DNA from: a bacterium
Lineage (GTDB): Bacteria > Babelota > Babeliae > Babelales > RVW-14
Reading direction: 5' to 3'
Length of the DNA: 16,965 bases
Assembly (NCBI GenBank): GCA_043822925.1
Contig: JBDRBF010000026.1
Span: forward strand, 1-16,965
Below, in pieces: positions 1,149 through 14,492 of the stretch. Positions within the stretch are counted from its first letter, which is position 1. Each line of letters begins with the position of its first letter. The notes below the pieces were generated by a model. That model was not told the origin of the DNA. It worked only from the letters and a program-made list of their open reading frames with translations, and did no database searches. The translations under genes and the position numbers were made by a program.

Positions 1149-3959
1149 TTACGAGCCTGAGCGGAGTTTCCAGATAATATCAAATGCTTGTTTTGGCGAT
1201 AAGTTATCGATATTTATGTCGTTTAAGATGCGTAACTTTTGTTCTTGTTCCAGTATCGTTCTTTTCAGCTGGTCTTTACTACGCTCTTCCCCCTTCGCCA
1301 AGGCTACGGAGGTCAGGTCGCCTATCGGCTCGTAGCTTTGGGGGACAGATCGAAGGGCAGGATTGGCTATAGTGGGCAGGCTGCTGGGCTGGTCATGTAG
1401 CACTTGCAAAATTTGGGCAGCCCTATTAATAATTGCATCGGGCAGTTGGGCCAGCTTGGCCACATCAAGCCCAAAGCTCCGGTGGGCCACTCCAGGGGCG
1501 ATCGTGTGTAAAAAGTGCAGGTTGACCCCAATTTTTTTGCAGAGCATGTGATAATTTTTTATAGTCGCAAAAGTTTGTTCTAGTTCTGTAAGCTCATGAT
1601 AATGCGTCGCAAAGAGCGTCTTGGCCTGAATAACGGTGACGAGATATTCAATAATTGCTTGGGCCAGTGCTATGCCGTCATGTGTGCTGGTTCCTCGGCC
1701 GACCTCGTCTAAAATAACCAAGCTGTGTTTGGTTGCCTGGGTACAGATCGTCGCCGTTTCTTCCATTTCGACCAAAAATGTACTTTTGCCTTCGGCTAAA
1801 TTATCTGCTGAGCCTATTCTTGTGAAAATACGGTCAAAAATAGGCACGTTTGCGCTGGTAGCAGGTACGAATGAGCCGCATTGGGCCAAGATCGAGATAA
1901 GAGCGACCTGGCGTAAATAAGTCGATTTGCCGCCCATATTGGGTCCGGTTATAAGCATGACTTCTTGGGTGTTATCTAAATTCGTATTATTACCAATAAA
2001 TTGGGTATTATTTGTTGTTTCTATGACGGGGTGCCTGCCAAGCTTAATATTTACGCTGCGTGTGCTATTAAATTGGGGGGCGCAATAATTATTATGATAG
2101 GCCGTGAGCGCAAAACTTAATAACGCGTCTAGATATGCAATAGATTGTGCGGTGTTTCGCAGGGGGGATAAATAACTTTCGACGTCGTCTTTGACCCGTG
2201 TGAAAACTTCGTTCTCGACAACGTCTATCTCGTTTTGGGCTTTAAAGATATCCCGTTCTAGATCTTTTAGTTCTTGGGTTACGTAACGTTTTCTGTTTGC
2301 TAACTTTTGTTGTTCTATATAGTCAGGTGGGACCTGGTCTAAGTTGGGGTTTGTGATCTCGATATAATAGCCTGAAACTCGATTGTAACTAATCTTAAGA
2401 CTATTTATATTTGTGCGAGCACGTTCTTTTTGTTCAAGTTTTAATAATTCTTGTTGGCTGTTTTCTACTAAGTTTCTTAGGTGATCTAATCGATGATCAA
2501 AGCCGTTTTTAATTATGTGCTCTTGGGAGCTATCGTCGTTTAGGCTTATCTCGAGTAATTTAATTAAGTCTGTGAAAATACCCATTTTTTCTTGTAGCGC
2601 TTGGGCCAGCTGCGTTTGGCATGTCGTGCGCAAAAGTTCTTTAATTTCTGGAATAATTATTAAAGATTGTTTGAGCGCTAAATAATCATGTATTTGTGCA
2701 CGTTTAAGTGCAATGCGCCCGATAATGCGCTCCAGATCTGCGATGCTTGATAAATAATTTTCGAGCTTTTGCGTGATATCTATATTTTTATGTAATTGTG
2801 AAACTGTATCTTGCCGGCGCATGATTGCTTGTTCTTGAATTAATGGCCTGAGTAACCATTTTTTGAGCATGCGTGAGCCCATTGCTGTCTTTGCTTTGTC
2901 TATTACAGCAAGTAACGTGTTTTTCCTGCCCGAATCTTGATTGTTCTTAATTATTTCTAAGTTTTTTTGTGTTGCGGGGTCTAAGATTAAATAATCTTCT
3001 GGCTGATAAAACTGTATCGTTTTAAATAGGGGCAGCGCTTTTTCCTGATTTTTTTTTAGATATGTATATAGCAGGTCAAGCGAGCGTGACATACTTGTAT
3101 TATTTTGCAGTATGCTTAATATGTTTGGCGAAAACTGGGCATCAAGCCAGGCTTTTGATATTGGTTGCCCGGCTGCATAGTCACCTGCTGACTGTATTAT
3201 GTTCTGGTTATTATCTGGGGTGTTGTTGTTATTAATAATCGTATTTGTATTGTAATTTGCTGCGTTTGTGTCAGCAAAACTTGTGCAGTAGCCCAGTTTT
3301 TTTAAGTACGTATTAATAGCTCTGGATCCTGAACCAAGTCCCGACTTCGCCAAGGCTTCGCCGGATACGTCAGGATGATAAGAAGAGCTTTTTTGTGTGT
3401 CGTTGCATGCGCTTGGCAGTACAATTTCGTCGGGAAAAAAACGGGCAAGTTCAGCTTCAAACATACGATAATCGCCCGCAGGAATATGGGTGGCAAAAAG
3501 TTGGGCTGTTAAGAGTTCAGTAAATACTAAGCCCCATTCTTGTTGTTCAGGATAAAACGAGAGTAAATATGATGCAGATTTGTCATCAAGCATCGTTGAA
3601 TCTATAAGAGTGCCAGGAGTAAATACGTGCGTGACGCCACGCTGCACTATAGTCCCTGGTTGTGGCTGCGTGAGTTGGTCACAGAGGGCGACTTTAAAGC
3701 CACCAGATATTAATTTTTTAAGATAGTGCTTTACGGCGTGTATGGGGATTCCACAGAGTGGCACATCTTGGCCATTATTTTTGCCACGGGACGTGAGTGC
3801 TATTGCTAAATATGCTGAAGCTGTTTTAGCGTCATCAAAAAAAAGTTCGTAAAAATCCCCGACCTGAAATAAGAGTAGCGTATCTTGGTATTGGTTTTTA
3901 ATATCAAAATACTGTTGCATTAATGGCGTGTTTTTTTCTATTATTTTTTCTGTGTTCAT
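1149..3959 (-). CDS. mutS: DNA mismatch repair protein MutS, with extra inserted segments
   Basis: Motifs TPLMQQY, GDFYELF (mismatch-binding F-x-E), Walker A TGPNMGGKST, DEVGRGTST, FATHY and C-terminal DNLSPKQA. Confidence 0.98.
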   Translation of the reverse strand: MNTEKIIEKNTPLMQQYFDIKNQYQDTLLLFQVGDFYELFFDDAKTASAYLAIALTSRGKNNGQDVPLCGIPIHAVKHYLKKLISGGFKVALCDQLTQPQPGTIVQRGVTHVFTPGTLIDSTMLDDKSASYLLSFYPEQQEWGLVFTELLTAQLFATHIPAGDYRMFEAELARFFPDEIVLPSACNDTQKSSSYHPDVSGEALAKSGLGSGSRAINTYLKKLGYCTSFADTNAANYNTNTIINNNNTPDNNQNIIQSAGDYAAGQPISKAWLDAQFSPNILSILQNNTSMSRSLDLLYTYLKKNQEKALPLFKTIQFYQPEDYLILDPATQKNLEIIKNNQDSGRKNTLLAVIDKAKTAMGSRMLKKWLLRPLIQEQAIMRRQDTVSQLHKNIDITQKLENYLSSIADLERIIGRIALKRAQIHDYLALKQSLIIIPEIKELLRTTCQTQLAQALQEKMGIFTDLIKLLEISLNDDSSQEHIIKNGFDHRLDHLRNLVENSQQELLKLEQKERARTNINSLKISYNRVSGYYIEITNPNLDQVPPDYIEQQKLANRKRYVTQELKDLERDIFKAQNEIDVVENEVFTRVKDDVESYLSPLRNTAQSIAYLDALLSFALTAYHNNYCAPQFNSTRSVNIKLGRHPVIETTNNTQFIGNNTNLDNTQEVMLITGPNMGGKSTYLRQVALISILAQCGSFVPATSANVPIFDRIFTRIGSADNLAEGKSTFLVEMEETATICTQATKHSLVILDEVGRGTSTHDGIALAQAIIEYLVTVIQAKTLFATHYHELTELEQTFATIKNYHMLCKKIGVNLHFLHTIAPGVAHRSFGLDVAKLAQLPDAIINRAAQILQVLHDQPSSLPTIANPALRSVPQSYEPIGDLTSVALAKGEERSKDQLKRTILEQEQKLRILNDINIDNLSPKQAFDIIWKLRSGS
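1289..1357. repeat. Short palindromic element (family B) plus a degenerate inverted partner, inside the mutS 3' end
   Basis: 1289-1312 on the minus strand reads CCTCC-GTA-GCC-TT-GGC-GAA-GGGGG, a hairpin with an internal loop. It shares cttcgccaaggct with 3345-3357. An inverted copy cgtagctttgg[9 nt]cgaaggg lies at 1331-1357. Confidence 0.75.
3323..3381. repeat. Family A palindromic element with a 30-nt family B element nested in its loop, inside mutS
   Basis: Removing 3340-3369 gives tggatcctgaaccaagttcaggatgataa, the same 29-nt length as and 25/29 identical to 11208-11236. Confidence 0.85.
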
Positions 3960-4121: not shown

Positions 4122-5924
4122 TTACCAGGTAGCGGGATACAGAAATTTAAAATATTTCCATTCTTCTTTATATGCTGGCGGGAATGATATGCTAGCATTG
4201 AATTCTTTATTTGTATCGCCAAGTAACGTTTGAAGCGTCTTGCGAGTTATATTTGTTGTTATTCTGAGCTCTGGAACATCAATAGTAAATTCTTCCCCTT
4301 CAAGTTCTCCACCGTAAAATTGCTTTATTTCCGATTCTACTTTTGCGTTATTGTCTAAAGTTTTTATTGCTTCGGCGAGCTTTTTTGTATATTCGTAGGT
4401 ATATTCTCCTGCGTTGATACCAGGCTTTGGGGCTATTATAATATCTTTATTGGTAACCCATTTTGCTTTCACTGAAAAATCTAATGCTGCTTCTCTGCCA
4501 AAGCGAATGGTAAAAATGGTAGGGCTATTAGGGGCGAGTTGGTTTTTTTTTGATGCATAAATATATCCGTTTCGGCAGGCCCATACATGATGGTAGTAGG
4601 CGCCACCTGTGCGCGTACTACCGCTGCCGCTGGGATTGGGAGTACGTATTTCGTCCGCTTCTCGACATCCACATCCAAAGCAGAATGAGCCATGTTTACA
4701 AGGGGAATTATGCATGATGAGGCAATTGTTGTTCTCATTGTGGTAATCTATGTTGCAATTAGGTTCAGGGCACCGTTGTGTCGTTAAAAAGGTAATTTGT
4801 TCGTCTTTTTCTATATCAGATAGTTTTGGTTTGTTATCTGTTTTATTGCATGCTCCTTGGTGCCAGGGTTCCTGGCAATCTGGACAATATTTTTTATGAC
4901 AGCTTGGGCATTCATATTTGGTGTTACGCGAGATTTCGTGAAAGCCCCGTCCGTTGCCCAAGCTGTAAAATTCTTTACAGTTTGGGGTTGGGCAGCGTCT
5001 AAAATTTTTGTCAGTACTTTTGGCTAAAAGCTTAAGTAAGTTTATTCGTTCTGTTTTTGTTTTGCTGCTATCATCAAGTTCATCAGTTACCACTTTGTTT
5101 AAGTCATCATCTGAAATTGGTTTTTTGCATTGGAGGCATTGTAATTCGTTACGATTTCTTTCTTTGAGAGTCCTTGAAACAGAAGGATCGTAGCAATAAA
5201 TACAAATTTGATTGTGTCCACATGATAGCGAGGGAAAGTCAGATTTAAGTGTTAAGTAGTAGCAGGATCCGCAGTTGTCTGTTTCTAGTTTGGGTAAAAG
5301 TTTAAGGGCGTCTATTCTTTCTTCTTTTGTTTTTTCTTTTCCTCCTTGTATTACTATTTCTTCTTTGCCTTGTCGCATTTGTATATTTGGGAGTCCTCCA
5401 ACAACCCCTTTAGTAATTATTTTCCCCCAATCGTCATCATCAATGAGTTTGTGGCATCCTGGGCATTTTAAGAGCCCTCGGTTAGTAGAATCAAGAGCCT
5501 TCCAAACAGGCCCTTCAACGCCGTTGTATTCATTAATGCAATAAAATTTTTTAGATTCAAGTGCATTGCAGCCACATGCTAATTCAGGAAACATATTTCC
5601 AGGTTTTTGTATCTTGCAAATCGCACAAGTTTTGGGCGCATTTTTCTTTCGTTCTTTTTCTTCCCGGGCTATTCTTTGTTCTTCTTGTTCGCGAGCTATT
5701 TTTTGTTCTTCTTGTTCGCGTTCTATTCTTTCTTCAGCAGTTTCTTTTGGTTTATTTAGATTGTCTTTGACTTCTGCCATCGTAATACTGAGCTCAATTA
5801 ATTTAGCTTTAAGTATGCCTAGGCTTTGCTTTATGTTGTCTATTTTTTTATCTAATGCTATTCCTGAAATGTTGTATACGTTAAAAATACAGATTAGTGT
5901 TAAAATATATAAAATTTTGCGCAT
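4122..5924 (-). CDS. Exported RBR (RING-IBR-RING) E3 ubiquitin ligase-like zinc-finger protein, 600 aa
   Basis: Signal-like N-terminus and coiled coil. Two tandem RING-like units (CAIC..CGC..CPGC; CGSC..CGH..CIYC..CLQC), an IBR-like unit (CPTPNC..CPSC..CPDC..WH..C) and a RING2-like unit (CPEPNC..NCLIMH..C..FCFGC..HHVWAC). Confidence 0.8.
   Translation of the reverse strand: MRKILYILTLICIFNVYNISGIALDKKIDNIKQSLGILKAKLIELSITMAEVKDNLNKPKETAEERIEREQEEQKIAREQEEQRIAREEKERKKNAPKTCAICKIQKPGNMFPELACGCNALESKKFYCINEYNGVEGPVWKALDSTNRGLLKCPGCHKLIDDDDWGKIITKGVVGGLPNIQMRQGKEEIVIQGGKEKTKEERIDALKLLPKLETDNCGSCYYLTLKSDFPSLSCGHNQICIYCYDPSVSRTLKERNRNELQCLQCKKPISDDDLNKVVTDELDDSSKTKTERINLLKLLAKSTDKNFRRCPTPNCKEFYSLGNGRGFHEISRNTKYECPSCHKKYCPDCQEPWHQGACNKTDNKPKLSDIEKDEQITFLTTQRCPEPNCNIDYHNENNNCLIMHNSPCKHGSFCFGCGCREADEIRTPNPSGSGSTRTGGAYYHHVWACRNGYIYASKKNQLAPNSPTIFTIRFGREAALDFSVKAKWVTNKDIIIAPKPGINAGEYTYEYTKKLAEAIKTLDNNAKVESEIKQFYGGELEGEEFTIDVPELRITTNITRKTLQTLLGDTNKEFNASISFPPAYKEEWKYFKFLYPATW
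5668..5730 (-). repeat. 27-bp coding tandem repeat, about 2.3 copies, encoding REQEEQ(K/R)IA
   Basis: gctattctttgttcttcttgttcgcga / gctattttttgttcttcttgttcgcgt / tctattctt. Confidence 0.9.
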
Positions 5925-8386: not shown

Positions 8387-8422
8387 ACAAAGAGGGGCTC
8401 GGCCAGCCGAGCCCCTCTTTGT
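8387..8422. terminator. Perfect inverted repeat, probable bidirectional terminator between clostripain and the phoH/HEPN transcription direction
   Basis: acaaagaggggctcggc / gccgagcccctctttgt is a 17-bp perfect inverted repeat with T-rich tails on both strands. Confidence 0.85.
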
Positions 8423-8634
8423 AATGTTGTGAGATTAAAAAATATTGCGAGTTTATAATTTTTCGGTTGTTAACTTCGCAAGTTCGCTGCGTTCTGATTT
8501 TTCTAGAAACGCTGTCGCAACAATAGCATTATCTTTGAGCTTGTCAGATGTCACGGTCAGGCCGTTGCTGGTAAAATCAAGATAGGGCGAATCGATTTGG
8601 TACGGGTCTCCGGCCAGAATAACTTTGGTGCCTT
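8390..8634 (-). repeat. Direct repeat copy 1: last 59 codons of phoH, stop, 3' UTR and terminator (startless phoH fragment)
   Basis: 245 bp matching 9457-9702 with 7 substitutions and 1 indel. The phoH stop equivalent is at 8453-8455. Confidence 0.97.
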
Positions 8635-9010
8635 ATTTTATAACTTTGTTTTTAACGAAATTAGAAATTTTATTTGCCAAATCAATTGCTTCAATAAGAT
8701 CCTTTTGATTCACATGAAAAGAATCATTTGGGTATCGTGAATTGAAGCCATAAGGATCTAAGTATTGGCATGCTTTTTGAAGTAAAGCGAACTCCACATC
8801 AAGCTTTGTACAGCCATCCAAAAGCATGCTTAAATCGTGGGTCTTTGGAATTGCCTTTCCAAGAAAAACAAAAAATGTTTTAAGCGATTTTTCTGCACAT
8901 TGATGAGTAAGGTAGATTGCAGGATCGATTGTTTCGTCATCACATATTGATTTTGTAGCCAATTTCAAATCAGCCGATGCTTTTTGCTCCCAATCTTTAA
9001 TCCCTGGCAT
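8633..9010 (-). CDS. HEPN domain protein (toxin-type partner of an MNT-HEPN pair)
   Basis: Motifs W..KA.ADL, HQCAEKSLK, KTHDL and SRYP. Its start overlaps the end of the upstream MNT gene. Confidence 0.92.
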   Translation of the reverse strand: MPGIKDWEQKASADLKLATKSICDDETIDPAIYLTHQCAEKSLKTFFVFLGKAIPKTHDLSMLLDGCTKLDVEFALLQKACQYLDPYGFNSRYPNDSFHVNQKDLIEAIDLANKISNFVKNKVIK

Positions 9011-9317
9011 AAATAACCTTGCCTTTGGTTTTTATCTCATAGGTACTTGAGCTTGGATCTTGAGCATATTTATCAAATTCTTCTTTGGTAAAGACAATCA
9101 CATTTTTGGGAATTTTTAATCCTAGTAATACCTCAAAGGCTGTGTATCCCCTTTTGATAACTCTTTCGTTGGAAGATTCTACTATAATTAATATATCAAA
9201 TGTACTATCTTCGTTCTGGGTACCCAAAGCATAGTCGCCATATAAATAAATTTGCAATGGTTTGTAAGCTTTAACAAGCCGTTTTATAGCTTCATCAATA
9301 GTAGTTTTTGTTACCAT
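8997..9317 (-). CDS. Minimal nucleotidyltransferase (MNT) domain protein with a degenerate catalytic motif
   Basis: P..IYLYGxYA.G...EDSxxD pattern, C-terminal G.VIY, 106 aa, gaggg RBS, paired with HEPN. Confidence 0.9.
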   Translation of the reverse strand: MVTKTTIDEAIKRLVKAYKPLQIYLYGDYALGTQNEDSTFDILIIVESSNERVIKRGYTAFEVLLGLKIPKNVIVFTKEEFDKYAQDPSSSTYEIKTKGKVIYARD

Positions 9318-9456: not shown

Positions 9457-9702
9457 AAGAGGGGCTCGGCCAGCCGAAGCCCCTCTTTGTAATGTTGTGA
9501 GATTAAAAAATATTGCGAGTTTATAATTTTTCGGTTGTTAACTTCGCAAGTTCGCTGCGTTCTGATTTTTCTAGAAACGCTGTCGCAACGATAGAATTAT
9601 CTTTAAGCTTGTCAGATGTTACGGTAAGCCCGTTACTGGTAAAATCAAGATAGGGCGAATCGATTTGGTACGGGTCTCCGGCCAGAATAACTTTGGTGCC
9701 TT
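9457..9702 (-). repeat. Direct repeat copy 2: the functional phoH 3' end plus a truncated, bulged terminator (9457-9487)
   Basis: 246 bp matching 8390-8634. The hairpin has an extra A (gccgaagcccc) and lacks the outer stem bases and tail. Confidence 0.97.
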
Positions 9703-11029: not shown

Positions 11030-11207
11030 AGATTCTCCTTTATGGTAAGGCGTTCTTTCAGACGCTAATCACGTCAAGGCGTGTTGGGGGCGCCGGACGC
11101 GAAACCTGTTTATTACCTATAATTTAGTTCGTTAGATTGAGAATAATAAAGAGATTTGTTAATCTGTCTGGATACGTACTTAAAATACGAGTACTTATAA
11201 AGTGGCT

Positions 11208-11236
11208 TGGATCCTGAAGCGAGTTCAGGATGACAA
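11208..11236 (+). repeat. Family A palindromic element in the phoH/thrS intergenic region
   Basis: tgg-atcctgaa-gcgag-ttcaggat-gacaa. Confidence 0.85.
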
Positions 11237-14438: not shown

Positions 14439-14467
14439 TTGTCATCCCAGACTAGATTTGGGATCCA
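14439..14467 (-). repeat. Family A palindromic element, reverse orientation
   Basis: The reverse complement tggatcccaaatctagtctgggatgacaa has the same length and termini as 11208-11236, with compensatory stem changes. Confidence 0.8.
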
Positions 14468-14492
14468 AGTCCAAATAAAATTAAGGATCCAA

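What the first reader, a model, noticed from the sequence alone, without database searches (positions are those of the whole stretch)
3323..3381. Nested palindromic elements translated in frame within MutS
Seen: a 29-nt family A element (free copies at 11208 and 14439) is split by exactly 30 nt containing a family B hairpin (minus strand CCGGC-GAA-GCC-TT-GGC-GAA-GTCGG). The composite keeps the mutS frame and encodes YHPDVSGEALAKSGLGSGS in the connector region. Known: Rickettsia palindromic elements insert in frame into housekeeping genes. Inference: two distinct very short mobile palindrome families, one of which may target the hairpin of the other, are adding peptide loops to a core protein. 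No mobilising enzyme is in the window.
Basis: partly seen in the sequence, partly recalled or inferred. Interest (0 to 1): 0.75.

Follow-up and report, generated by a model that had tools for sequence, protein, structure and literature searches.

The report
Nested hairpin repeats inside mutS
Two small selfish DNA hairpin repeats, one sitting inside the loop of the other, lie in frame in the mismatch-repair gene mutS of an uncultured Dependentiae (TM6) bacterium and add a floppy 21-residue loop; this kind of event is already known from Rickettsia and other bacteria.

Summary
Window 3321-3383 (minus strand, mutS codons 193-213) is a 63-nt composite: a family A hairpin whose 5' arm is interrupted by a 30-nt family B hairpin. 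All 33 MutS orthologues examined lack this block. AlphaFold2 models it as a low-confidence loop inside the connector domain.

Family A has 82 paired copies in this 1.52-Mb genome, against 0-7 in shuffles. It is a TGTC-tagged REP of the CGTC superfamily. It brackets both small GIY-YIG genes of the genome, which are 46% identical to the NTS-embedded SsnA-type gene of Neisseria. So A is an Ssn-related hairpin in a phylum where it has not been reported, although it fails the published SRM search pattern.

Family B is a separate CYTG-tagged hairpin family. It occurs in genomes without A and in viral contigs. B-in-A nesting recurs at fixed positions next to the A loop: 22 intact cases here, and composites in 18 of 35 genomes of the family.

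In-frame REP/RPE insertions in repair genes are already described, and this scan noted the same families in holB and gpsA of this genome. I call it a new member of a known kind, of moderate interest.

The parts
1149..3959 (-). mutS, 936 aa, intact ORF with all five MutS Pfam domains
   Evidence: Invariant residues F36/E38 and the Walker A stretch 672-680 are kept in an alignment of 18 orthologues.
3321..3383 (-). 63-nt composite insert (A interrupted by B), read in frame as residues 193-213 (SYHPDVSGEALAKSGLGSGSR)
   Evidence: Absent from 33 of 33 orthologues. pLDDT below 50 over residues 186-209.
3370..3383 (-). Family A 5' part: degenerate tag plus 5' arm (CTTATC-ATCCTGA; family consensus TTGTC-ATCCTGA)
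3340..3369 (-). Family B module, 30 nt (CGTA-TCCGGC-GAA-GCC-TT-GGC-GAA-GTCGGG), subtype B3
   Evidence: nhmmer E 0.087; 3 mismatches in 25 to the copy at C2:35635-35664
3321..3339 (-). Family A last arm base, loop, 3' arm and tail (A-CTTGG-TTCAGGAT-CCAGAG)
11206..11236 (-). Free, uninterrupted family A copy, intergenic, upstream of thrS
   Evidence: DNA fold z -3.7.
14439..14469 (+). Free, uninterrupted family A copy, directly after the stop of the metallophosphoesterase gene
1279..1361 (-). Second in-frame mosaic of nested B-type modules, in the MutS C-terminal linker (residues about 866-896, ...LTSVALAKGEE...)
   Evidence: B-model hit 1290-1317. pLDDT below 50 over 858-893. A net insertion relative to orthologues is not shown.

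Best explanation
The segment is a fixed, in-frame insertion of selfish hairpin DNA into the connector domain of an otherwise intact mutS. It is translated as a disordered surface loop and tolerated as a neutral passenger.

The outer element (A) belongs to the TGTC-tagged branch of the CGTC REP superfamily. These are oriented hairpins: a tag, an 8-bp stem beginning AT, a 5-nt loop, then a C and a CCA tail. In this lineage they bracket genes for an SsnA-type single-strand-specific GIY-YIG nuclease.

The inner element (B) is an independent 30-33-nt CYTG-tagged hairpin. It has an outer stem, a symmetric GAA/GAA internal loop and a GCC-TT-GGC tip. It integrates preferentially next to the ACTTG loop motif of A, and next to AGCTTG in a third family (F).

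Shown: repeat-family membership, nesting at fixed positions, absence from orthologues, the link between A and the nuclease gene, and the low-confidence loop.

Inferred: that the insert arrived by transposition-like copying of single-stranded hairpin DNA, whether A and B came together or one after the other, that the protein still works, and which enzyme moves B. The mutS copy is probably inert now, because its tag is mutated and its hairpin is interrupted.
For: Family A. There are 82 paired copies against 0-7 in shuffles. The stems covary: CAGA/TCTG, TGAA/TTCA and TGGA/TCCA in this genome, and CCGGA, CCTGA, CCCGA and CTCGA in relatives. The pattern is present in 22 of 35 genomes of the family, with the reversed control at 0.

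Nuclease link. Both 101-aa GIY-YIG genes are flanked by A. By coordinates the same holds in G014, G012 (five places, two of them gene fragments), G007 (a partial gene) and, on one side, G004. The protein is 46% identical over 91 residues without gaps (E 1e-28) to a 94-aa ORF of N. gonorrhoeae that lies among 11 NTS copies in 1.28 kb.

Family B. An nhmmer model gives 37 hits at E<0.01 and 70 at E<1. Of the 70, 22 lie in intact A, 13 beside partial A, 12 in F, 2 in B and 21 elsewhere. The B core is in 28 of 35 genomes and in 16 viral-contig loci, against 0 for the reversed control. Composites occur in 18 of 35 genomes.

The insertion. 18 of 18 and 15 of 15 orthologues lack the block. The Pfam MutS_II match breaks at residue 193. 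E. coli MutS aligns to residues 7-180 and 296-878 only. pLDDT is below 50 over 186-209, between strand 178-182 and helix 212-221.

Not an assembly artefact. Contigs of three other runs from three studies cover the element with 0-1 differences and no gaps.

Genome-wide habit. A lies in frame inside or beside Pfam domains of holB, dprA, acs, cdsA, a Mur ligase, fabF/B and iPGM, and in the N-terminal part of a DUF885 ORF, upstream of its domain.
Against: No empty or A-only allele was found, so movement into mutS is inferred from distant orthologues only (at most 58% identity).

The alignment gap is 25 residues but the element accounts for 21. The loop region varies in length.

The composite does not fold better than shuffles.

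A does not match the published SRM search pattern: the genome has 1 hit, which is not an A copy, against 1-3 in shuffles, and all four A variants tested fail.

SsnA is known to cut single-stranded DNA upstream of its hairpin, not to move it (PMC11893778, section 8, read), so no transposition chemistry is known for A.

No enzyme is linked to B. The B model was trained on A-hosted copies, which inflates the share found in A.

No RNA or protein data exist (0 RNA runs).
Confidence: 0.8

Rival explanations
1. One-step origin. A ready-made A+B composite was copied into mutS as a unit, so B never integrated into mutS itself.
For: Composites with the same architecture (TCATCCTG-CGTG...-ACTTGATTCAGGATCCA) exist in G041 and G015, and four identical composites occur in G044. 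So composites do multiply as units. Within this genome, B1 subtypes partly track the A stem types.
Against: B occupies at least three positions and both orientations within A across genomes, so independent integrations are also common. B is 30 nt here and usually 33 nt, always a multiple of 3, so a later in-frame integration into a resident A was equally possible.
Confidence: 0.45
2. Adaptive loop or regulatory hairpin. The insert is kept because it changes MutS function (for example the contact made through the connector domain) or mutS expression or stability.
For: MutS was hit repeatedly. There is a second B-type mosaic in the C-terminal linker of the same gene. G005 MutS carries independent B-type inserts in the connector and the C-terminal linker. 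Di Nocera et al. noted many intragenic REPs in replication and repair genes (PMC3733652, section 15, read).
Against: The insert is modelled as disordered and is absent from 33 of 33 orthologues. The copy is decayed. Insertions cluster in regions that already vary in length, as expected from mere tolerance. Many unrelated housekeeping genes are hit too.
Confidence: 0.08
3. Chance resemblance or assembly artefact.
For: nhmmer E for the mutS B copy alone is only 0.087, and the half-site scans are noisy (284 heads against 222 in a shuffle).
Against: The head, tail, complementary arms, B core and orthologue gap all coincide at one place. Shuffles give no 31-32-nt pairs and 2 pairs of 57-67 nt in five shuffles together. 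Contigs of three independent runs carry the identical sequence.
Confidence: 0.02

Closest known systems
CGTC-tagged REPs (Di Nocera, De Gregorio and Rocco 2013, PMC3733652; abstract and sections 6, 7 and 15 read)
   Same: An unpaired tag (CGTC, or TGTC in many repeats), an 8-9-bp stem starting with A-T pairs, a 4-5-nt loop and a CCA tail. They are dispersed in high copy. Some lie inside ORFs, many of these in replication and repair genes. Some REPs sit inside other palindromes.
   Different: Here the CGTC-type hairpin is the host of another hairpin, not the guest. The stems are AT-shifted. The host phylum (Dependentiae) is not among those listed. mutS is not named among the genes listed in the section I read.
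Ssn-related motifs (NTS/SRM) with the SsnA GIY-YIG ssDNA nuclease (Chenal et al. 2025, PMC11893778; abstract, sections 6-8, 10 and 17 read, supplements searched)
   Same: An oriented hairpin with GTC before and C after the palindrome. A single-domain GIY-YIG gene of about 100 aa is bracketed by the repeats. The protein is 46% identical to the Neisseria gene embedded in NTS copies.
   Different: A fails the published degenerate SRM pattern. The only Dependentiae genome found in their Supplementary Data 4 (Babela massiliensis) is listed with 0 SRM and no ssnA (two of the 14 supplement files were not searched). Nuclease activity was not tested here. In-frame genic copies and nested guests are not described in the sections I read.
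Rickettsia palindromic elements (RPE; recalled from Ogata et al. 2000/2002, and as cited in PMC3733652, where RPE-4 and RPE-6 are equated with CGTC-4 and CGTC-1)
   Same: Palindromic repeats inserted in frame into housekeeping genes of an intracellular, reduced-genome bacterium. They add loops without breaking the protein.
   Different: Different phylum. The unit is shorter (about 33 nt, against 100-150 nt for RPE-1, recalled). The element is nested and two-family. Sequence relatedness to RPEs was not tested.
Small dispersed repeats SDR1-8 of Nostocaceae (Elhai et al. [quoted passage not shown]
   Same: Very small (about 20-30 nt) mobile repeats with a sequence-specific target, found inside other repeats.
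   Different: Different sequences and phylum. Here the target is the loop of a tagged hairpin repeat.
REP/REPIN with RAYT, and hairpin elements derived from IS200/IS605
   Same: Hairpin DNA handled as a single strand. B sits 3' of a short motif (YTTG) without an obvious duplication. One Y1 gene (C83:55121-55465) is flanked by B1-like hairpins.
   Different: Neither A nor B carries a GTAG tag. B is not enriched near Y1 genes (3 of 32 loci; 0.53 hits per 10 kb against 0.46 genome-wide). 15 of the 28 genomes with the B core have no detectable Y1 gene.

Membership tests
CGTC/TGTC-tagged REP (family A) | Unpaired 5' tag CGTC, TGTC or CCTC | tested here: met
   TGTC precedes the stem in the family (TTGTCATCC is the commonest GC-containing word). 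The mutS copy has TATC.
CGTC/TGTC-tagged REP (family A) | Stem of 8-9 bp starting with complementary A/T pairs, loop of 4-5 nt, short CCA tail | tested here: met
   ATCCNNNN / NNNNGGAT, loop CTTGA, tail CCAAG in 51 copies of 31-32 nt. In mutS the hairpin is interrupted by 30 nt.
Ssn-related motif (SRM) | Matches the published degenerate pattern HGTCWYN(0-2)YYVSBRHN(0-5)WNVSBRGN(0-2)RNCYNB | tested here: not met
   1 hit in the genome, not an A copy, against 1-3 in shuffles. 0 of 4 A variants match.
Ssn-related motif (SRM) | The genome encodes a homologue of SsnA (the paper's criterion is E<1e-10 to the N. meningitidis protein) | tested here: met
   tblastn E 4e-19 and pairwise E 1e-28 at 46% identity, to the 94-aa ORF among 11 NTS copies in N. 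gonorrhoeae. N. gonorrhoeae was used as a stand-in for N. meningitidis.
Ssn-related motif (SRM) | The repeats flank the ssnA gene on both sides | tested here: met
   C57 copy: A at L036 1385-1418 and 1764-1797 around the gene at 1426-1731. C2 copy. Relatives G014, G012 and G007 (a partial gene) by coordinates.
Ssn-related motif (SRM) | The nuclease cuts the motif only as single-stranded DNA | not testable with these tools
   Needs purified protein and oligonucleotides.
RPE-like in-frame palindromic insertion | The repeat lies in frame in a conserved gene, is absent from orthologues, and the ORF stays intact | tested here: met
   (33 of 33 orthologues lack it).
RPE-like in-frame palindromic insertion | The insert lies on the protein surface, outside the folded core | tested here: met
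   AlphaFold2 model: pLDDT below 50 for residues 186-209, between well-modelled elements. This is a prediction only.
REP/RAYT (REPIN) | GTAG tag, and repeats flanking a RAYT gene | tested here: not met
   A and B have no GTAG tag. The Y1 genes at C2 and C64 are flanked by their own GTAG-CCYGGGCAC repeats, not by A.
Hairpin element derived from IS200/IS605 (family B) | Association with a Y1 transposase, and insertion 3' of a fixed short target | tested here: inconclusive
   YTTG precedes B in A, in F and in several other contexts. There is no enrichment near Y1 genes and no co-occurrence: 13 of 28 B-positive and 2 of 7 B-negative genomes have a Y1 gene.

The most novel reading that the evidence does not exclude
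Family B is a 30-33-nt tagged hairpin found in both bacteria and phage contigs. It would be one of the smallest mobile elements known. It integrates site-specifically beside the loop of other hairpin repeats, acting as a parasite of a parasite. In doing so it splits the recognition hairpin of the Ssn nuclease, so that nesting disarms Ssn target sites. Its mobilising enzyme would be new, or a paralogue of the GIY-YIG nuclease: strong GIY-YIG homologues occur in 18 of 28 genomes with the B core, against 1 of 7 without it.
Probability: 0.2. Interest if true: 0.65.

Novelty: new member of a known kind. Interest (0 to 1): 0.35.

Why it matters
The finding adds mutS, hit twice in this genome and independently in a second genus, to the list of core genes that tolerate translated hairpin repeats. 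It extends the Ssn nuclease and hairpin system to Dependentiae, a phylum of intracellular parasites of protists, and shows that the published SRM search pattern misses this AT-shifted variant.

The recurrent, position-specific nesting of a second hairpin family inside the first gives a concrete substrate for two questions: how such tiny elements move, and whether nesting blocks Ssn cleavage.

For annotation it is a warning. Low-confidence loops in conserved proteins of these MAGs are often repeat-encoded.

Tried and rejected
- Y1/RAYT as the mover of B. Density of B-model hits near 32 Y1 loci was 0.53 per 10 kb (3 loci with a hit), against 0.46 genome-wide and 0.33 at 19 MutS loci. There is no co-occurrence either. 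Rejected as a general explanation; the single case at C83 remains.
- Published SRM pattern. It does not match A.
- Ssn cleavage site as the B entry point. SsnA cuts upstream of the hairpin, not at the loop (PMC11893778, section 8).
- Empty or A-only alleles. Contigs of X2, X3 and X5 carry the same composite. X4 shows only short B-like matches from other contigs. The metagenome and genome scans found no MutS closer than 58% identity.
- Rfam. No family matches the elements; there were 4 weak, unrelated hits with E above 0.08.
- GIY-YIG protein. NCBIfam gave only sub-threshold matches and PDB sequences gave none.
- B in plasmids. Only chance-level partial matches, E at least 0.04.
- Fold stability of the composite. 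Not better than shuffles.
- Literature. 'Dependentiae' plus 'palindromic' gave 6 papers, none about repeats judging by title or abstract. The B core strings occur in 0 papers. Searches for nested repeats gave nothing useful. Elhai 2008 is not held.
- Earlier-findings look-ups by sequence returned nothing.
Full report
**What is there**

The window is contig C26 of a 1.52-Mb, 86-contig, 37% GC genome. Its nearest named MutS relatives are MAGs titled Candidatus Babeliales and candidate division TM6, that is, Dependentiae. This agrees with earlier scan notes.

mutS is the 936-aa ORF at 1149..3959 on the minus strand, with all five MutS Pfam domains.

At 3321-3383 the coding strand reads CTTATC-ATCCTGA | CGTATCCGGCGAAGCCTTGGCGAAGTCGGG | A-CTTGG-TTCAGGAT-CCAGAG. 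It is translated in frame as S193-R213.

**Family A**

Read on the strand that starts with the tag, the free element is (C)TTGTC-ATCCNNNN-CTTGA-NNNNGGAT-CCAAG.

- Copy number: words from it are the commonest GC-containing 11- and 12-mers of the genome.
- A head and tail scan finds 82 pairs: 51 of 31-32 nt, 22 of 57-67 nt, 3 of 92-112 nt and 6 others. Five shuffled genomes give 0-7 pairs, none of 31-32 nt.
- The variable stem positions change in a compensated way (CAGA/TCTG, TGAA/TTCA, TGGA/TCCA).
- The exact pattern TGTCATCC-N13-GGATCCA occurs in 22 of 35 genomes of the taxonomic family, with other compensated stems. The reversed control is 0 everywhere.
- It also occurs in 19 loci of viral contigs. 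There, 20 of 21 copies have perfectly complementary arms.

The anatomy fits the CGTC-tagged REPs of Di Nocera et al. (PMC3733652, section 6): the tag is changed to TGTC in many repeats, stems are 8-9 bp and begin with A-T pairs, loops are 4-5 nt, and there is a CCA tail. It also parallels the Neisseria NTS, CGTC-ATTCCCGCG-MAV-GCGGGAAT-C (PMC11893778, section 6).

**The nuclease link, tested here**

The genome has two paralogous 101-aa single-domain GIY-YIG genes, plus a 577-aa ORF that also carries a GIY-YIG domain.

- The C57 gene is bracketed by inverted A copies 8 and 33 nt from its ends.
- The C2 gene has an A+B composite and a free A upstream, and an A plus a B downstream.
- By coordinates, A also brackets the homologous gene in G014, at five places in G012 (two of them gene fragments) and around a partial gene in G007, and abuts it on one side in G004.
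- The protein is 46% identical over 91 ungapped residues (E 1e-28) to a 94-aa ORF of N. gonorrhoeae. That ORF lies among 11 NTS copies in 1.28 kb, which is the SsnA situation described by Chenal et al..

Against membership, the published degenerate SRM pattern does not match any A variant. In that paper's Supplementary Data 4 the only Dependentiae genome found (Babela massiliensis) is listed with 0 SRM and no ssnA (2 of the 14 supplement files were not searched).

Co-occurrence within the family is imperfect. Of the 22 genomes with A, 16 have a strong homologue (counting the partial gene of G007), and so do 4 of the 13 without the short form. Two of those 4 have composite A copies. Related genomes are not independent data points.

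**Family B**

The 30 nt inside the mutS element align with the inserts of the other composites. The shared plan is a tag (CCTG, CCGTG or CGTA), an outer stem, CGWAGCC, a short loop, GCGWAG, and the outer stem again. Subtypes differ in the outer stem; I call them B1, B2 and B3, and mutS carries B3.

- The mutS core has 9 relatives at up to 6 mismatches, against 0 in a shuffled genome.
- The 16-nt core occurs 11 times here and in 28 of 35 genomes of the family, with the reversed control at 0. This includes genera without A.
- A 25-nt degenerate B pattern occurs in 16 viral-contig loci of 42-69% GC, again preceded by CYTG and without A flanks. The reversed control gives 0.

So B is a family of its own, with a wider range than A. 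The B core strings occur in none of the papers searched.

**Nesting**

An nhmmer model of B was built from 18 of the 22 A-hosted inserts with flanks removed; 4 truncated or aberrant rows were dropped. It gives 37 hits at E<0.01 and 70 at E<1. Of the 70:

| Context | Hits |
|---|---|
| Inside intact A elements (all in the same orientation as A) | 22 |
| Beside partial A | 13 |
| Inside a third family, F (GCGCTCACCCTG^AGCTTGTCGAAGG) | 12 |
| Inside other B modules | 2 |
| Elsewhere | 21 |

A covers only 0.24% of the genome. The training set inflates the share in A, but the excess is far too large to be explained by that.

Two entry points are used:

- B1 and B2 follow the loop motif (ACTYG^).
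- B3, including the mutS copy, lies one base before it (ATCCNNN^N-CTTG). B3 enters F at the equivalent place.

Across the family, TGTCATCC-N38-60-GGATCCA composites occur in 18 of 35 genomes, with the reversed control at 0. They have species-specific A stems, different B subtypes, a third entry point after the 3' arm, and both orientations. Four identical composites occur in G044. Hence B enters A repeatedly, and composites also multiply as units. Triple nesting exists as well (C4:775 and C47).

**The insertion in MutS**

- All 18 orthologues from related genomes and all 15 from metagenome contigs lack a block of about 25 residues at this site. The element explains 21 of these residues.
- The Pfam MutS_II match ends at residue 193, at profile position 65 of 133.
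- E. coli MutS aligns to residues 7-180 and 296-878 only.
- An AlphaFold2 model built on 18 sequences (mean pLDDT 79) gives pLDDT below 50 for 186-209. This lies between strand 178-182 and helix 212-221. The N-rich stretch 234-263 and the C-terminal linker 858-893 are also below 50.
- Mismatch-binding F36/E38 and the Walker A residues are invariant, so the protein looks functional.
- Contigs of three other runs from three studies carry the identical composite. No empty or A-only allele was seen, and no MutS closer than 58% identity was found. The order of events therefore cannot be resolved.
- B inserts are 30 or 33 nt, so either route keeps the frame.
- The mutS copy is decayed (tag TATC, interrupted hairpin, fold z +0.6) and is probably inert.

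**Not a special property of mutS**

A elements lie in frame inside or beside Pfam domains of holB, dprA, acetyl-CoA synthetase, cdsA, a Mur ligase, fabF/B and iPGM, and in the N-terminal part of a DUF885 ORF, upstream of its domain.

MutS itself carries a second, multiply nested B mosaic in its C-terminal linker (1279-1361). G005 MutS has independent B-type inserts in both regions.

Earlier notes of this scan report the same families in holB and gpsA of this genome, and nested in-frame repeats in mutS of other phyla.

**Mechanism**

For A, the partner nuclease is identified by homology and by gene context. SsnA is only known to cut single-stranded DNA a few bases upstream of its hairpin (PMC11893778, section 8). 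How the repeats spread is not established.

For B, I tested Y1 transposases.

- Four genes exist. One, on C83, is flanked by B1-like hairpins. The genes on C2 and C64 have their own GTAG-tagged repeats.
- B is not enriched near 32 Y1 loci.
- 15 of the 28 genomes with the B core lack a detectable Y1 gene.
- Strong GIY-YIG homologues are commoner in genomes with the B core (18 of 28) than in those without it (1 of 7). This is only a hint.

The best reading is copying of single-stranded hairpin DNA with a preference for the ACTTG loop. The enzyme is unknown.

**Verdict**

The class of event is known: RPE, and intragenic CGTC/GTAG REPs in repair genes. The added value is a new host phylum for the Ssn-type system, and a well-documented case of position-specific nesting of one hairpin family in another.

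Noticed in passing
window 8410-8634 and 9478-9702, around 8633-9317: A HEPN plus nucleotidyltransferase (MNT) gene pair, toxin-antitoxin-like, sits between two 225-nt direct repeats that are 97% identical. The repeats include the hairpin GGGGCTCGGCCAGCCGAGCCCC and overlap the 3' end of the PIN-PhoH gene. It looks like a cassette that duplicated its target, similar to the Y1 cassette noted earlier in this genome.
   Followed up: partly
window 1279-1361 (-): The C-terminal linker of MutS holds a second, multiply nested B-type mosaic read in frame (...PIGDLTSVALAKGEERS...), with pLDDT below 50. A net insertion relative to orthologues is not shown.
   Followed up: partly
window 3192-3266 (-), MutS residues 232-256: An asparagine-rich low-complexity stretch (NAANYNTNTIINNNNTPDNNQNIIQ) in the connector domain, absent from all 33 orthologues and modelled as disordered.
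   Followed up: partly
L002 3470-3620 and 1600-1720 (G005 mutS): MutS of another genus carries its own in-frame B- and F-type repeat mosaics, in the connector (ALLRSTSSEGQALLRSTSG) and in the C-terminal linker (SSFAKATADRQDKL). They are at different sites, and in the linker the B core is on the opposite strand, so these are independent events.
   Followed up: partly
L237-L252 and L253-L271 (IMG/VR viral contigs): Both hairpin families occur in viral contigs of 42-69% GC. B is found at 16 loci, against 0 for the reversed control. A is found at 19 loci, nearly always with perfect arms. There the two are not nested. The hosts and gene contexts were not examined.
   Followed up: partly
G000:C83:54700-55630 (L039): A Y1 transposase gene is flanked, in direct orientation, by B1-like hairpins (CCTGTCCTACGAGCCACGCAGGGCGTAGTAGGA) that lie within a longer repeated unit. 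It is the only such case among the four Y1 genes of this genome.
   Followed up: partly
window 4122-5924 (-): A 600-aa ORF with an IBR (in-between-RING) half-RING domain. This is a eukaryote-type ubiquitin-ligase module in a bacterium that lives inside protists.
   Followed up: no
G000 contigs C2, C6, C22, C24, C31, C66, C83, C84 (L021-L033): Family A or A+B elements lie in frame in holB, dprA, acs, cdsA, a Mur ligase, a DUF885 protein, fabF/B and iPGM. In 7 of these 8 the tag-first strand of A is the coding strand.
   Followed up: partly
G000, about 30 copies, e.g. C2:24100-24140: A third repeat family, F (GCGCTCA[CT][CG]CTGAGCTTGTCGAAGGG), also hosts B modules and is itself found inside A. 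Read in frame it gives peptides of the FDKLR/AQGER type.
   Followed up: no
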